From Mytilus edulis (Eukaryota), in the NCBI RefSeq assembly GCF_963676685.1, contig NC_092355.1, forward strand, positions 36,518,001 through 36,582,000: DNA of 64,000 nucleotides, given 5' to 3'. A program made the position numbers. Of this stretch, positions 12,001-31,300 are shown in pieces. Within the stretch, counting starts at the first letter, position 1. Each line of letters starts with the position of its first letter.

Positions 12001-15000
12001 GCGTCAAGCGTTAAAAGTGAAGAATTATTTACAATGAGAAGCTGTTTAATTGGTCGCTTTTTTTGTAGTATCTTTTAAAATTTGGTAAGATTAATATGGT
12101 ACAACCAACTAACAAAGATGGGGTTATCAACTTACATTCTTAATTTTCATATGCTTTTACAGAATTATGAGACATATTTCAGTCGTTTTACCTTACTCTT
12201 ATTTTTTATGTAAAAAATGCACATTTAAGCACCCCATTAATCAGCTCTTTTAGACAACATTGATTTTGAGTATTCATCCTAAAAAATGTATGAAAAAAAT
12301 ATGTTAAGGAATAAAGATGTATATGTTCCTTTGGATAGAATTTGATTTAAGGTGATAAGTGAAGTTCTTCATTGCAAATTTTAACAAAAACACTATCAAC
12401 ATTTGTAATTTTATATCAAATTTCCTTAAAAAAAAACATTTAAGATTTTTTTTATATACTTAAGTATGGTTTTGGCTATACTTAAATATTTAAGAATATT
12501 CTTAACTTTGAGTAAGAAAATATCTGAGAATTTTTTTATGGCGGTGCATTTTGCTGAGAATAAAAAAATTGAGAAAATTCTCAGGCTGAGTAAAAAAAGT
12601 TTACTCAAATAGTTTTATGGCGCCGGGGCCTGAAACATTAGAATTTTATCATTGTTGATTTAATGATTTATTTTGGTATGCTCGAGGTCAACGGCCGACG
12701 GATAAATTTCAAAACCTGTCAGCTATTCTGTGTACATAGTTATCTATTCTGTGTAAACTAATCATTCAATCTTTCCTAATTCTTTTTAGAAATAAACAGG
12801 TTGATAGGTACTAATGCAGACAAGTAAATGATGATGTCTTTGGGTATGATGCTAAAACTATGCAAAAATTGACAGGTTTGCTATTAGAATATAAATGTAA
12901 AGCAGCATTTGTTTAATATTGTATCTTTCTTTAAAATTATCATCTAAACATTTATTTGCTTTCTTTTTGTTTTAGATGTGAACATCCTTAGTGTATGTAG
13001 GAATTACATACACCGGTAAAAAGCAGGTGTCTGTATATATATAAGAAGTGAAGACATACTACATGTTATTTGACTGTCCTTCACTACTGGTCTAGAGCAG
13101 ATAACAAATGCATAATATTATAACGAAATATGACAATATGACAACTTGCAGCGACAATGATCTATTTAACTATTAAGATGCACATGTATAAGTGAGGTTC
13201 ATATAAAATAGAAACATGGAGTTTACCTGGATGTTCTAATATTCAAGTTGAAATATAAGTACTTACATGGCGCTGAATGGTTGAATTTCTTCACGCCTTA
13301 AATGATACATTATACAATTAAGTGATTTTTCTTTTTTTTTTCTTTACTTATTTAATTATATAAATATATGTATGTGTATTGTATGTAACAAAAAAGAAAG
13401 AAAACGTACTACAATCAATAATATCTAAGAGATTGCAAAATAAAACATAACTAACATGTCATAGATTGTTCAGTTCCGACTCACTAATCTTCTAGAAAAC
13501 TAACACAAAAAATTGAAATCTTAGGTTGTATTAACTCTTAAATACTTGAAGAAAAATATGTTCGAAATTTATCCAAACAAATTAGACCAATACGTCTAAT
13601 GTCTACTTTGCAATTACTTTATAGTTCGATGCTAATTTTATGCGGAAATGCCGACATGTATCTTAAACCGCATTTAATATCCACGAACAAACAGCTGCAG
13701 CAGGTAAGGCCCTAGAAGATTGACAATACAAAATATAAAATTGAGAATGGGAATTGGGAATGTGCCAAAGAGACAACAACCCTACCATAGAGCAGACAAC
13801 AGCAGAAGGTCCCTCTGGTATCTTTCGTGCCTCTTTTTTTTTTAACAAATACGTATTTTCTGAGTCCCAGATGTTCCTCGATTTTCTTTCTTAGACATTA
13901 AGAATCATCTCATTGTCATAGCAACTTTTTTATACATCGAGACTTACAATTGTCACAACGTCGATACCGAATTTGGTGTAACAATTAACATGATTAAAAA
14001 AAAACGAAAGGTTATGTATTTCAAATTAATAACATTGCATGTATCTTTCAATATTTTACGTTATATTGATTGGCGAACAGCAATTTCGTGGCCTTCTGAA
14101 ATTGAATTTTGTTACACAATGACATTTTTCAGTCATGATGACAAGAGGTCCCACAGGTAAATAAATAAAAACTTGATAGAAATCATGTTTTCATGATCCG
14201 TGCTAAAAAATGTAATTATAAGTATTGAATGCTTCTTTTTGTAATTCCATATGGTCGCAAAAGCGAGACCGTGCGCACATTTTTTTCAATGAAGAGCTTC
14301 TGCGCGCTTCATACAAAAACTACTTCGGTCAACGAATTTATACTTCAATGTAATTACAAAAAGAAGCATTTAATTCTGAAATAAATACTGTTCAAACAGT
14401 ACAGCATTTCAAACCTTCATATATATGTTACTTAAATACCTTTACCAATTCTCCTTATACATAAATAAATTGAATGTTTATTTTGTTCTTATTTGAGGAA
14501 TTTCAAGTGTTCAATTCATGTCTTCAACAATCGTACATTCTTAGTAGCATTGGTATTGATATGTATATATAATTTAGTAGGTATGCATATTAAATAGTGA
14601 ATCAATATAATGTACAATATCTAGTCAACTATAGAGATGAATGACTGAATAAAAGAATGTATTTGGTTGTGTGCCAATCTACAATAACTTTAACAGACAT
14701 GTTCACCATAACCCATAGCTAACAACATTATATTGTCCTGTCACAAATAAGATTGTTATGCTGAATGTTCTAAACGTTTTGTTTTGACACATCTTTATTC
14801 TATGAAAACTTCAGGATGTTATAGTCTAACTGCTTTATGTTGTGTTTATACATATGTATCTCCAGTCAAAATCATGGTACTTCATGGTATAGTTCATATG
14901 CGTGTCGCCGATCAATTAATACTCTCTTTAAGCATTCATTACGTCTCGTGCAAATGCCTTTAACTGTATGTTCATACACTTAATACATTATGTGCACACA

Positions 15001-28300: not shown

Positions 28301-31300
28301 AAATAAGACGTAAATATCAATCTTTCGGAAAATTGTACCATTAATCGTTTCTTGGATAAATACACAATTAAAAACTTAATAAAATCTTGCAGTTAAACAG
28401 CTTTGAAACCGACTGAAAAGTTCAAAGTACAAACAAGCAATTGTCTTGAAAAATGAATATACAAAAGCAGATGCGTTATGTATGCCACTGAATGACAGGC
28501 ACAACATACAGATTGTGGAGACAGAACTTTAACAAGAATGTGTCCATACTACACGGATGCCCCACTCGCACTATCATTTTCCATGTTCAGTGGACCGTAA
28601 AAATTGGGGTCAAAACTTTATTTTGGCATTAAAATTAGAAAGATCATATCACGGGGAACATGTGTACTAAGTTTCAAGTTGAGTGGACTTTAACTTCATC
28701 AAAAACTACCTCGACCAAAAACTTTAACCTGAACTTTGCACTATCATTTTCTATGTTCAGTGGACCGTGAAATTTGGATCAAAACTTTAATTTGGCATTA
28801 AAATTAGAAATATCATATCATGGGGAACATATGTACGAAGTTTCATGTTGATTGGACTGTAACTTCATTAAAAACTACCTTGACCAAAAACTTTAACCTG
28901 AACTTTGCACTATCATTTTCTATGTTCAGTGGACCGTGAGATTGGAATCAAAACTTAAATTTGGCTTTAAAATTAAAAAGATCATATCATGGGGAACATG
29001 TGTACTAAGTTTCAAGTTAATTGGACTTCAACTTCATCAAAAACTACCTTCACCAAAAACTTTAACCTGAAACTAACACTTTCATTTTCTATGTTCAGTG
29101 GACCGTGCAATTGGGGTCAAAACTTTAATTTAGCATAAAAGTTAGAAAGATCATATAATGGGGAACATATGTACTAAGTTTAAAGTTGATTGGACTTCAA
29201 CTTCATCAAAAACTACTTTGACCAAAAACTTTAACCTGAAGTGGGACGAACGGACGGACAAACAGACGAACGGACAGACAGACGGACGAACGGACGTACA
29301 GACCAGAACACATAATGCCCCTCTACTATCGTAGATCGGGCATAAAAATCAGTTGGTATTAAAACTATTGTCAGTTAAACACTTGATTAATGTATTTACC
29401 TGAACAATACTACTTCGAACAAAGGTATTTAAAAGAAGATACATATTACACTATACTAAGTTGTAGATTGTGCATGTTTTATTTAATGTCTAGTTCATTT
29501 CAATCATTTGTTACTTTAATGACGAGCTGTATCTTGTTATGTTGTATGTATTTATTTTGTATGATTAATAATATAAAGGATGAGCTGATTCTAATAACTT
29601 ACCCACAACCAGAACATCTGTATAAGTATCCATGGCGTTGCTCCTTTTTTTCAAGGACTGGTGCACAATTGCTATCAAAAAGATTTGATTTCTTTATGGT
29701 TTTTTTTAAATGTTTAAATAAATAATTCATTTTGAAATTATTTAATTCTATTTAAAAGTACTATGTAAAATCTGGGATTTTTTTTTATATAAAGGATAAA
29801 AGTACAGGTAAACACACTAATGTACAAAACTGTTGTTGTCATTTTTCAATAAAGTATAATGAAATACGAAACTATTATAGTTTCATAATATGTCTTATCA
29901 TTTAACAGTATGCTCACATTATATAAAATGTACATTTGGATATTTGAAATTTCTTCAATATTTGATAATGATGTTAACTTAAAAAAAACCACTCTTTTGT
30001 AGATGATAATTTTTTTCTATTACTCAATGTAAAGTGATAACTTGTATTATCAATGCATATACTGTTATGATTAATTGTGTTATCATTATGATCAATGCAG
30101 TTCTTATCATATGTTTTGTATAACTGCATGAGCTATTTTTTCATTACTTGTGGACGGTGTTATTCCGTTACTTAAAGCGCTTCATTAATTGGAAAACACT
30201 GTCTACGTCAGTAGTTACCGATATAGTTTATGTTACTTATAAAAAAGAACGTGTATTTTGGAGATATATTTAAAAAGAGTAGGTATGTTCCAAGCTTTCA
30301 ATCTTAAGTTGTGGTATGTGTATTTGTCAATCATTTCTTGCTATATATGAACTTTAAAAATAATGTCACTCAAAATTTTAAAGTTTTGCAAGGTTTATGA
30401 TGCAAACTGTATCAATTTAAAAGACATCGCATATTGTTATATTTACCTAATATTATATGTCCCTATCATTTGTCTGATGTCATCTTCAGCTACAGATTTA
30501 CGACTAAATGATATTTTGGGAAACTTTGGAAGAGAATTTATATGTAGTTTGTCAATTTCTTCTTTCAGATTATTGATCTTTTGTACCAAATTTCCATCCT
30601 GTCGGGTCTTAGCTAGTTCTGTTCTCTTTCTGTCTAATGTCTGTACGGCTACAAGCTCGGATTTAGCATCAGCTAACATATTCATCAGCTTGTCTTTCTC
30701 CTTCTTGGATTGTTCTTTCACTAAAGTAATCATCTGAGCTACGGTTTCATCAACCATACGTTTAATCTTACCGCCTTCGTCGTTGATGGCTTTTATAACA
30801 GACTCAACAGAATTATCAAACGATATTAAACTATCCTCAATTTTCTTTATATTTTGATTTGCTTCATTTGTTGTGGCATGAATTTTCGTTTCGTTTTCCC
30901 CTTGTAGTTGAACGATGACATCGAAAATCTGGGAAAACGTATGCCCATTGTGTTTTCCTGTCACACAACGTGTGCATATCTGTGCATTACATGTGTTACA
31001 ATTTAAAGTCAATTCTTCTTTGTGTTCATTACATTTAGATTTACCTTCCGGGATAAGTTCGGAAGCTTTTTGAAACTGGTGGTTTCTCGATAACTTCTGT
31101 CTATTGTGTAGTAACTTACAATTTCCACAATAGTATTCTTCACAGTCAATGCAATAGTGTGATCCCGGGGCACTCACGCAAACCTCACATGTTTTAGACG
31201 CAGCTTGAGCCATTTTAAATTCGATCAAAATCACAGTTATGACGTCAGGTTATTGTAGTACATGCTAATGAATTCTAATTTTAAATCAAGTACAATAGAT

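What the first reader, a model, noticed from the sequence alone, without database searches (positions are those of the whole stretch)
13267..31213. Hidden 15-nt and 30-nt symmetric exons link the B-box exon to the microexon array in both paralogs
Seen: exon 1 (phase 2), then 15 nt (29603-29617 / 54409-54423), then 30 nt (13267-13296 / 52320-52349). Both small exons are multiples of 3, open in phase 2, and keep their splice sites in two diverged paralogs. Joined they read RCSGCGREEIQPF / RCSTCGREKIQPF, a CxxCG zinc-knuckle-like half-site. Known: B-box/coiled-coil proteins usually end in NHL, B30.2 or filamin domains; none is visible here. Inference: a short microexon-built tail replaces the usual C-terminal recognition domain. 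Additional small exons may have been missed.
Basis: partly seen in the sequence, partly recalled or inferred. Interest (0 to 1): 0.75.

Follow-up and report, generated by a model that had tools for sequence, protein, structure and literature searches.

The report
Mussel B-box gene: exon boundaries misread
The two "hidden microexons" are real coding sequence of an already annotated blue-mussel B-box/coiled-coil gene, but one is only the end of a 69-base exon and the other opens the last coding exon, so nothing ties the gene to a microexon array.

Summary
The exon model is only partly right.

**Identity.** RefSeq XP_071142871.1 (Mytilus edulis, "TRIM71-like isoform X2", 289 aa) matches the window exon by exon at 100%:
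- exon 1: 31213-30447
- exon 2: 29671-29603, 69 nt
- exon 3: from 13296, ending ATG TAA at 13268-13263

**The 15-nt "exon"** is the last 15 nt of exon 2. None of the 190 homologue models that reach the end of exon 1 joins exon 1 directly to RCxxCG.

**The 30-nt "exon"** has the right acceptor and frame. Its "GTAAGT donor" supplies the stop codon of the annotated protein.

**The donor may still be real.** About five paralogue models continue past exactly that point. A 27-nt candidate exon at 734-708 would add a second CxxC at the spacing seen in one RefSeq paralogue. Its use here is open.

**The array.** No evidence links the gene to the 0.66-kb tandem array.

**Paralogue 2** carries three frame-breaking 1-bp indels.

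**The protein** is a RING-less, TRIM-like B-box1/B-box2/coiled-coil protein ending in one CxxCG hairpin.

The gene is ordinary and already annotated.

The parts
30447..31213 (-). Coding exon 1 (767 nt, ATG at 31213, ends AG|GTAAAT, phase 2). Encodes B-box 1, B-box 2 and the coiled coil.
   Evidence: 255 of 255 residues are identical to XP_071142871.1 (P0099).
29603..29671 (-). Coding exon 2 (69 nt). Acceptor ttttgatAG|C, donor GG|GTAAGT. Encodes (S)NCAPVLEKKEQRHGYLYRCSGC(G).
   Evidence: Its 22 whole codons equal P0099 residues 257-278. tblastn gives 48 HSPs with E<1 at 29600-29699; the best is P0025, 23 of 24 identical, E 2e-11.
29603..29617 (-). It is the last 15 nt of exon 2, and its tacAG "acceptor" lies inside the exon.
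   Evidence: None of 190 homologue models joins exon 1 directly to RCxxCG.
13263..13296 (-). Coding part of exon 3: 31 nt (13296-13266) encoding (G)REEIQPFSAM, then stop TAA at 13265-13263.
   Evidence: REEIQPFSAM equals the last 10 residues of P0099. Coordinates.
13261..13266 (-). Donor-like GTAAGT that overlaps the last G of ATG and the TAA stop. It may be a real donor used in paralogues; use at this locus is not shown.
   Evidence: Paralogue models P0003/P0112, P0014, P0040, P0047 and P0113 continue after 9 residues plus one codon.
14728..27849 (.). About 13.1-kb transposon-like insertion with roughly 1-kb inverted ends inside intron 2. It explains most of the size difference between the 16,306-nt intron here and the 2,059-nt intron in paralogue 2.
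708..734 (-). Candidate 27-nt symmetric exon (ttttttAG|...|GTAAGT). In phase 2 it would read (I)GLTCGNCM(G), a second CxxC 13 residues after the CG. Unverified.
   Evidence: It is the only strong-splice-site candidate longer than 3 nt and a multiple of 3 in 1-13262(-). The spacing is the same as in RefSeq P0014. No homologue tail contains this peptide.
44896..44922 (-). Copy of the 27-nt candidate exon downstream of paralogue 2, identical in sequence to the first copy.
56308..57074 (-). Paralogue 2 exon 1 (767 nt). It has a 1-bp deletion near 56818 and a 1-bp insertion at 56391, so the 427 nt between them are out of frame.
   Evidence: dN/dS against paralogue 1 is 0.23.
54409..54478 (-). Paralogue 2 exon 2 (70 nt, +1 relative to paralogue 1). 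CxxCG is out of frame with the acceptor.
52316..52349 (-). Paralogue 2 exon 3 coding part, (G)REKIQPFGKM, then TAA.
1481..9053 (.). Tandem array of about 0.6-0.67-kb units (second copy at 45677-51652), 4.2 kb downstream of the stop codon. No evidence ties it to the gene.

Best explanation
**The gene.** This is a Mytilus edulis gene on the minus strand with three coding exons, already modelled in RefSeq as XP_071142871.1 (289 aa).
- Exon 1 (767 nt) encodes two B-boxes and a long coiled coil.
- Exon 2 (69 nt, 29671-29603) encodes a linker and the motif YLYRCSGCG.
- Exon 3 begins at 13296 and contributes ten residues (REEIQPFSAM) before TAA.

The 15-nt exon is the 3' end of exon 2, entered at an internal AG that happens to keep the frame. 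The 30-nt exon is the coding start of exon 3.

**Why three model lengths exist.** All three junctions are phase 2 with GTAA after them. Reading through any of them meets TAA at once. This explains the three recurrent lengths of family models: 256, 279 and 289 aa.

**The protein (inferred).** It is a RING-less TRIM-like scaffold that forms an antiparallel coiled-coil dimer. It ends in one beta-hairpin CxxCG knuckle instead of a C-terminal recognition domain. In this subfamily, C258 and H269 could complete a zinc site.

**The array.** The 0.66-kb tandem array downstream is not part of the coding sequence.

**Shown versus inferred.**
- Shown: exon-by-exon identity to the RefSeq protein, the domain content and the family tail pattern.
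- Inferred: that transcripts really end after exon 3, the dimerisation, zinc binding and the cellular role.
For: **Match to RefSeq.**
- Exon 1 is 255 of 255 identical to P0099 = XP_071142871.1.
- Exon 2's 22 codons and exon 3's 10 codons plus stop equal P0099 residues 257-278 and 280-289. The split codons give S256 and G279. The CDS is 767+69+31 = 867 nt = 289 codons.

**Family tails.**
- Of 96 homologue models: 26 stop one residue after exon 1, 12 stop at CxxC(G), 23 stop 2-14 residues after CxxC, 14 run longer, 13 have other tails and 8 do not reach the end of exon 1.
- In the larger set of 273 held proteins, 190 reach the end of exon 1. None has CxxC within 5 residues of it and 73 have at least 17 residues before it. 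Among those 73, 16 stop at the residue after CxxC, and 10 residues after it is the commonest non-zero tail length (14 models).
- In 41 models with the 19-residue pre-segment, C258 is kept in 35, H269 in 35 and G279 in 38.

**Domains and fold.**
- Pfam: zf-B_box E 6.2e-14 (two stretches) and ANCHR-like B-box E 5.3e-9.
- AlphaFold2 of the 95%-identical P0004 with a 124-sequence alignment: mean pLDDT 88.5, helix 96-201, tail hairpin 271-274/281-284.
- Foldseek finds TRIM72, KAP1/TRIM28 and TRIM5alpha B-box/coiled-coil structures at E 5e-7 to 1e-4.

**Dimer.**
- Two copies of P0004 scored 0.69; the best of 3 controls scored 0.00.
- The mark was reached by 21 of 30 microbial proteins solved as pairs of one chain and by 0 of 23 solved as single chains.
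- On eukaryotes it was reached by 17 of 29, but by only 1 of the 7 with no older solved relative.
- The runs agree in at least 85% of contacts, and the partner's pLDDT is at least 77.
- TRIM dimers are solved structures, so the pass may be from memory. It shows likeness, not binding.

**No longer version found.** A search with P0099 residues 250-289 returned 9 proteins, none continuing past the tail.
Against: **The donor after 30 nt may be real.**
- The stop lies inside a perfect GTAAGT, exactly 30 nt after the acceptor, in both paralogues.
- Five paralogue models (P0003/P0112, P0014, P0040, P0047, P0113) continue after 9 residues plus one codon with unrelated sequence.
- In four of the five, the following residues cannot come from reading through a GT donor. 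This is my inference from codon logic, using protein sequences only.
- The 289-aa form could therefore be a read-through form beside a spliced one.

**A candidate next exon exists.** A 27-nt segment with strong splice sites would add CxxC at the spacing seen in P0014.

**Other gaps.**
- The RefSeq name says "isoform X2", and I could not see isoform X1.
- I saw no transcript data. RefSeq models are predictions, and 26 of 96 family models stop after exon 1.
- TRIM_CC scores 22.8 bits, below Pfam's cut-off of 30.
- The confident part of the dimer interface stops at residue 257 and does not include the knuckle.
- The 50%-identity subfamily has no Cys upstream of CxxC (0 of 13). A CHCC zinc site is therefore not a family-wide feature.
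Confidence: 0.72

Rival explanations
1. The 30-nt piece is a genuine internal symmetric exon at this locus too, at least in some transcripts. Its GTAAGT donor would splice across about 12.5 kb, over the tandem array, to the 27-nt exon at 734-708. That exon supplies a second CxxC and completes a C4 zinc ribbon, and the transcript then continues beyond the left edge of the window. On this view the 289-aa RefSeq form is the unspliced or intron-polyadenylated variant.
For: - A perfect GTAAGT sits 30 nt after the acceptor in both paralogues.
- About five paralogue models continue at exactly this point.
- The 27-nt candidate is the only candidate in 1-13262(-) that has a pyrimidine-rich acceptor, a GTAAG-type donor, and a length above 3 nt that is a multiple of 3.
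- In phase 2 it places CxxC 13 residues after the CG, as in RefSeq P0014 (XP_063405613.1).
- More distant Mytilus relatives have two-knuckle tails.
Against: - The RefSeq protein identical to this locus stops at TAA.
- None of the 273 held proteins has a GLTC or C[GA]NC match in its tail. None of the 9 hits to P0099's tail runs longer.
- No convincing next exon follows the 27-nt piece in the 4.9 kb downstream of the paralogue-2 copy.
- The two copies of the candidate are identical, so conservation gives no information.
- GC-rich islands are common: 86 in the window.
- The 27-nt piece could belong to another gene; for example, it ends in ATGGG.
Confidence: 0.2
2. One reading: exon 1, then a 15-nt exon, then a 30-nt exon, then an array of microexons in the tandem repeats.
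For: - Both pieces have AG/GT flanks and keep phase 2.
- The array units carry 14 copies of a pyrimidine tract-CAG-NNN-GTAAGT motif.
Against: - None of 190 homologue models has the exon 1-RCxxCG junction, and the exact RefSeq model has the 69-nt exon.
- The array motif encloses only 3 nt. Every triplet begins with T, so in phase 2 no stop codon can arise, and openness is automatic.
- There is no protein or HMM match in the array and no Pfam match in the two array ORFs tested.
Confidence: 0.02
3. Transcripts mostly read through the exon-1 donor to the adjacent TAA and give a 256-aa protein. Exons 2 and 3 would then be minor or annotation-driven.
For: 26 of 96 family models are 256-aa read-through forms. 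They include RefSeq M. trossulus XP_063405986.1, which is 244 of 255 identical to this exon 1.
Against: - Exon 2 is conserved as protein across the family down to about 50% identity, with core G-[KR]-Y-L-Y-R-C-x-x-C-G.
- tblastn finds it in both paralogues (48 and 54 HSPs).
- The motif occurs only at these two sites on the minus strand of the window: 3 hits on both strands, against a shuffle mean of 0.37.
Confidence: 0.06

Closest known systems
RefSeq XP_071142871.1, E3 ubiquitin-protein ligase TRIM71-like isoform X2 [Mytilus edulis] (P0099)
   Same: Identical exon by exon to the window: 255 + 22 + 10 whole codons and both split codons, 289 aa.
   Different: Nothing at the protein level. It is a computed model, and I could not see its transcript support or its isoform X1.
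The Mytilus-wide family of 256/279/289-aa B-box proteins, e.g. XP_063405985.1 (M. trossulus, P0004, 95% identical), XP_071142873.1 and XP_063405995.1
   Same: Same exon-1 product, same exon-2 linker plus CxxCG, and the same tail of about 10 residues.
   Different: The tails vary. Some paralogues run on to a second CxxC (P0014) or to unrelated sequence (P0003 with Ig domains, P0047).
TRIM/RBCC proteins: TRIM72, KAP1/TRIM28 and TRIM5alpha B-box/coiled-coil structures
   Same: Tandem B-boxes followed by a helix of about 105 residues with a hairpin-back helix. An antiparallel dimer is predicted.
   Different: No RING and no C-terminal NHL, B30.2, filamin or PHD-bromo domain. Sequence identity to the solved structures is 13-17% over the long alignments.
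RING-less vertebrate TRIMs such as TRIM29
   Same: B-boxes plus coiled coil without a RING (TRIM29 as described in the abstract of PMC8720877, seen in the listing).
   Different: No orthology is shown. The CxxCG tail is not a described TRIM29 feature, as far as I recall.
Micro-exon genes of schistosomes (recalled from memory, no call)
   Same: The idea of symmetric small exons that keep one phase.
   Different: Here 767 of the 867 coding nt come from one exon, and only two small exons follow.

Membership tests
RefSeq gene model XP_071142871.1 (M. edulis) | Protein identical to what the locus encodes, exon by exon | tested here: met
   Exon 1 is 255 of 255 identical. Exon 2's 22 codons fall at residues 257-278 and exon 3's 10 codons at 280-289, followed by a stop.
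TRIM / RBCC (tripartite motif) | N-terminal RING finger | tested here: not met
   Pfam finds no RING, and the B-box 1 match begins at residue 9.
TRIM / RBCC (tripartite motif) | One or two B-box zinc fingers | tested here: met
   PF00643 at E 6.2e-14 with two stretches, and PF22586 at E 5.3e-9. The Cys/His ligands are at least 90% conserved in 124 sequences.
TRIM / RBCC (tripartite motif) | Coiled coil after the B-boxes that forms an antiparallel dimer | tested here: inconclusive
   - AF2 predicts helices 96-201 and 207-222.
- Foldseek matches TRIM B-box/coiled-coil structures.
- The dimer prediction scored 0.69 against a best control of 0.00, but may be from memory.
- PF25600 scores 22.8 bits, below its cut-off of 30.
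- No experiment was done.
TRIM / RBCC (tripartite motif) | C-terminal recognition domain (NHL, B30.2/SPRY, filamin, PHD-bromo) | tested here: not met
   Only 34 residues follow exon 1. No such Pfam family was found in exon 1 or in the 10 other window ORFs tested.
C4 zinc ribbon | Two CxxC knuckles about 10-25 residues apart | tested here: inconclusive
   The first knuckle is present (C275, C278). The annotated CDS stops before a second one. The candidate second knuckle in the 27-nt segment at 734-708 is unverified. Zinc binding cannot be tested here.
Micro-exon gene (array of symmetric exons of 36 nt or less making up most of the CDS; definition recalled from memory) | Most of the coding sequence is built from tandem symmetric microexons | tested here: not met
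   The CDS is 767 + 69 + 31 nt. The array shows no protein or HMM match, its two tested ORFs show no Pfam match, and its splice-like motif encloses 3 nt.

The most novel reading that the evidence does not exclude
The family's C-terminal zinc ribbon is split over three tiny phase-2 exons: knuckle 1 at the end of the 69-nt exon, a 30-nt linker exon, and a 27-nt exon with knuckle 2. Whether a transcript stops at the donor's own TAA or splices on would then decide between a half-site tail and a full ribbon.

At this locus, the intron to be crossed is filled by a 0.66-kb tandem array. Its units each carry an acceptor and a consensus donor only 3 nt apart, which could act as recursive-splicing-like waypoints.
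Probability: 0.12. Interest if true: 0.45.

Novelty: already known. Interest (0 to 1): 0.18.

Why it matters
**For the scan.** AG/GT flanks, a length that is a multiple of 3 and an open frame are met hundreds of times per intron: 366 times in 17.4 kb here. They can give the right reading frame with the wrong exon. Paralogue conservation also needs comparison with the flanks, and a check that the paralogue is intact.

**For mussel biology.** The locus belongs to a large Mytilus family of RING-less B-box/coiled-coil proteins. All named members I looked up are from Mytilus. Their tails end at one of three phase-2 donors, which explains why annotations give 256-, 279- and 289-aa versions.

Whether the last donor is alternatively used to complete a zinc ribbon is a small question that existing RNA-seq data could answer.

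Tried and rejected
1. **Array units as decayed copies of exon 1.** tblastn gave scattered co-linear hits at E 1-3. An HMM of the family against the six-frame window found only the two exon 1 copies and one weak relic at 11539-11718(-), i-E 0.2. Rejected.

2. **More knuckle exons.** The pattern [YFWLH]xCxxCG occurs only at the two exon 2 copies, plus one plus-strand hit at 39665.

3. **A conserved second CxxC just downstream of the stop.** There are four in 8000-13262(-) of paralogue 1 and none in 50700-52315(-) of paralogue 2.

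4. **A next exon after the 27-nt candidate.** There are no GC-rich islands and only weak acceptor/ORF candidates in 44895-40000(-).

5. **A longer isoform of this gene in the protein collection.** Neither of the 2 hits longer than 447 aa nor any of the 9 hits to P0099's tail is one. Isoform X1 was not found.

6. **Poly(A) signals.** AATAAA/ATTAAA lie 307 and 346 nt after the stop (279 and 318 nt in paralogue 2). The background density is about 3 per kb per strand, so this is uninformative.

7. **Rfam and tRNA scans.** No hits.

8. **A first regex classification of tails failed**. It was replaced by an alignment-based one.

9. **Literature.** Three searches gave no paper on this tail or on microexons in Mytilus.

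**Not done.**
- I did not search or fold a joined version of the window's own exons. Comparisons were exon by exon, and database proteins P0004 and P0099 stood in for the whole protein.
The genomic exon boundaries of the paralogue models and the RNA support for the 3' end therefore stayed unchecked.

Full report
**What the window is.** The window has no N and about 30% G+C. The translated first exon (P0001, 255 aa) finds only Mytilus proteins among its named hits: 94 proteins of 140-447 aa and 2 longer ones. One member of the top cluster is P0099 = XP_071142871.1, [quoted passage not shown], 289 aa. It is 255 of 255 identical to exon 1. The window is therefore blue-mussel DNA, and this gene is already modelled in RefSeq.

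**Checking the observation.** On the minus strand:
- Exon 1 runs 31213-30447 (767 nt, phase 2) and ends AG|GTAAAT.
They are flanked by AG and GTAAGT and read RCSGCG and REEIQPFSA in phase 2.
- Paralogue 2 has the same flanks.

The 17,447 nt after exon 1 hold 366 AG...GT segments of 3-30 nt that are multiples of three and open in phase 2, of which 52 are 15 nt and 31 are 30 nt.

The two pieces are also no better conserved between the paralogues than their flanks:
- 13 of 15 nt match, within an alignment that is 93% identical.
- 23 of 30 nt match, within one that is 79% identical (my count).

**The true exons.** I compared the window with P0099 exon by exon. I did not search or fold a joined version of the window's exons.
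- The 54 nt upstream of the 15-nt piece are open in the same frame.
- From the acceptor ttttgatAG|C, the 69-nt exon 29671-29603 encodes NCAPVLEKKEQRHGYLYRCSGC, which is P0099 residues 257-278.
- The split codons AG|C and GG|G give S256 and G279.
- From 13296 the frame reads REEIQPFSAM and then TAA, the last ten residues of P0099.
- The total is 767+69+31 = 867 nt = 289 codons.
- tblastn with the homologues hits exon 2 strongly: 48 HSPs at E<1 in paralogue 1 and 54 in paralogue 2. The best is 23 of 24 identical at E 2e-11.

Of the 273 proteins held, 190 align to the end of exon 1:
- 73 have at least 17 residues before it;
- 4 have 6-16 residues before it;
- 47 stop within one residue;
- 66 have no CxxC in the next 70 residues.

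The 15-nt exon is therefore the tail of a 69-nt exon, entered at an internal AG that happens to keep the frame.

**The end of the protein.** The supposed donor of the 30-nt exon, GTAAGT at 13266-13261, contains the stop codon: ATG TAA GT. The same holds at the other two junctions:
- exon 1 ends AG|GTAA, which reads through as R, stop;
- exon 2 ends GG|GTAA, which reads through as G, stop.

This explains the three length classes among 96 family models:
- 26 stop one residue after exon 1, mostly at 256 aa;
- 12 stop at CxxC(G), for example at 279 aa;
- 23 stop 2-14 residues after CxxC, for example at 289-290 aa;
- 14 run longer, 13 have other tails and 8 do not reach the end of exon 1.

Among the 73 models, 16 stop at the residue after CxxC, and ten residues after it is the commonest non-zero tail length (14 models).

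Five models continue after exactly nine residues plus one codon, each with a different sequence: P0003/P0112, P0014, P0040, P0047 and P0113. In four of them, the next residue cannot come from reading through a GT donor. This is my inference from codon logic, using protein sequences only. The donor after 30 nt therefore seems to be used in some paralogues.

More distant Mytilus relatives have a second CxxC 7-18 residues after the CG. Eight of the ten I looked up are named, and all eight are Mytilus.

Scanning the minus strand downstream of the stop gave one candidate with a pyrimidine-rich acceptor, a GTAAG-type donor and a length above 3 nt that is a multiple of 3. It is a 27-nt segment at 734-708, with an identical copy at 44922-44896. 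In phase 2 it would read (I)GLTCGNCM(G), placing CxxC 13 residues after the CG. That is the spacing in RefSeq P0014.

Against this candidate:
- no held protein has such a tail;
- none of the nine hits to P0099's tail runs longer;
- no next exon is evident;
- GC-rich islands are common, 86 in the window.

I put the use of this donor at this locus at about 0.2.

**The "microexon array".** Downstream lie tandem units of about 0.6-0.67 kb, at 1481-9053 and again at 45677-51652.
- They have no match to family proteins or to a family HMM.
- Pfam finds nothing in the two array ORFs tested.
- There is no Rfam or tRNA hit.
- They do carry 14 copies of TTTTTCAG-NNN-GTAAGTAGCAAG, an acceptor and a donor 3 nt apart.
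- Every triplet starts with T, so in phase 2 no stop codon can arise. Openness there is automatic, not evidence.

I see nothing that ties the array to the coding sequence.

**The paralogues.** Self-comparison shows a duplicated block:

| Paralogue 1 block | Paralogue 2 block | Identity |
|---|---|---|
| 1-6310 | 44169-50500 | 97.4% |
| 8183-9053 | 50779-51652 | 90% |
| 29343-30022 | 54149-54796 | 86% |
| 30133-31752 | 56024-57617 | 80% |

- Intron 2 is 16,306 nt in paralogue 1 and 2,059 nt in paralogue 2. Paralogue 1 holds a transposon-like insertion of about 13.1 kb with inverted ends of about 1 kb (14728-27849).
- Paralogue 2 has three frame-breaking 1-bp indels, each at or beside a short homopolymer run: a deletion near 56818, an insertion at 56391, and a 70-nt exon 2.
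- Its exon 1 shows dN/dS 0.23 against paralogue 1 (dN 0.092, dS 0.409, 254 codons). The breaks are therefore either recent or assembly errors.
- No held protein equals paralogue 2. The best match is P0026, 92% over 142 aa.

**What the protein is.**
- Pfam finds two B-boxes and, below its cut-off, the TRIM coiled coil. It finds no RING and no C-terminal domain.
- AlphaFold2 on P0004 (XP_063405985.1, 95% identical) with 124 sequences gives mean pLDDT 88.5. It predicts a helix at 96-201, a return helix at 207-222 and a tail hairpin at 271-274/281-284 around CxxCG.
- Foldseek finds TRIM72, KAP1/TRIM28 and TRIM5alpha.

The dimer prediction used two copies of P0004:
- score 0.69; best of 3 controls 0.00;
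- the mark was reached by 21 of 30 microbial proteins solved as pairs of one chain and by 0 of 23 solved as single chains;
- on eukaryotes it was reached by 17 of 29, but by only 1 of the 7 with no older solved relative;
- the runs agree in at least 85% of contacts, and the partner's pLDDT is at least 77.

The contacts are antiparallel, for example residue 143 with 158-162 and residue 151 with 151. TRIM dimers are solved structures, so this pass shows likeness and may be from memory.

In the close subfamily, C258 and H269 are each kept in 35 of 41 models and could complete a zinc site. The 50%-identity subfamily has no upstream Cys, 0 of 13. The family-wide core is G-[KR]-Y-L-Y-R-C-x-x-C-G.

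My best guess is a RING-less TRIM-like dimeric scaffold with a small C-terminal knuckle. This is inferred, not shown.

**Literature.**
- B-box families are listed among bivalve expansions in a table passage of PMC8382680.
- B-box is among the abundant domains in a mussel transcriptome, from a table passage of PMC5549309.
- RING-less TRIM29 is described in the abstract of PMC8720877, seen in a search listing.
- Three searches found nothing on this tail or on microexons in Mytilus.
- Supplements were not consulted.

**Verdict.** The gene is ordinary and already annotated. The only open point is whether the donor that overlaps the stop codon is also used at this locus.

Noticed in passing
window 56308-57074, 54409-54478 (minus strand): Paralogue 2 carries three 1-bp indels, each at or beside a short homopolymer run: a deletion near 56818, an insertion at 56391, and an extra base in exon 2. 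Exon 1 nevertheless shows dN/dS 0.23 against paralogue 1. It is either a recent pseudogene or contains assembly errors. No held protein equals it.
   Followed up: partly
window 14728-27849: A transposon-like insertion of about 13.1 kb sits in intron 2 of paralogue 1. Its inverted ends of about 1 kb are built of short sub-repeats. Inside it are a 72-nt perfect-arm palindrome (17987-18134) and a 470-bp direct repeat that is 99.6% identical (18846-19315 and 20623-21092). No transposase was found in the three ORFs tested.
   Followed up: partly
window 1481-9053 and 45677-51652: A tandem array of about 0.6-0.67-kb units carries 14 copies of pyrimidine tract-CAG-TNN-GTAAGTAGCAAG on the minus strand, that is, an acceptor and a consensus donor 3 nt apart. 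The flanks are conserved and the middle two bases vary. The purpose is unknown; it may be a repeat-borne splice-site-like motif.
   Followed up: partly
window 1-6310 vs 44169-50500, compared with 30133-31752 vs 56024-57617: The array side of the duplicated block is 97.4% identical between the two copies, while the gene side is only 80-90% identical. This suggests gene conversion or a later re-duplication of the array part. The homology starts at window base 1, so it may extend further left.
   Followed up: no
window 9053-12630 (minus strand): 11539-11718 and 9321-9488: A segment specific to paralogue 1 holds a weak B-box 2/coiled-coil-like relic (HMM i-E 0.2; tblastn E about 0.02 for 26 queries). 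About 2.2 kb downstream is an ORF containing FCQDCG. Together they may be a decayed third copy of the gene.
   Followed up: partly
window 34864-35370, 38944-39510, 37097-38278 (plus strand): Two pieces of a Mutator-like transposase (PF20700, E 1.3e-15 and 1.5e-50) are separated by about 3.6 kb. That gap includes a tandem duplication of about 590 bp (97% identical).
   Followed up: no
window 42081-43033 (plus strand): Two ORFs have exonuclease matches (RNase_T and Exuperantia RNase H-like, below Pfam cut-offs) and a PML C-terminal domain match (PF25244, E 1.5e-9). They lie between the two B-box paralogues.
   Followed up: no
family-wide: All three junctions of the gene are phase 2 with GTAA after them, so reading through any of them stops at once. 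This seems to be why public annotations of this Mytilus family fall into 256-, 279- and 289-aa classes. Some long models (P0002, P0003, P0098) look like fusions with retroelement sequence, Ig-domain sequence or neighbouring-paralogue sequence.
   Followed up: partly
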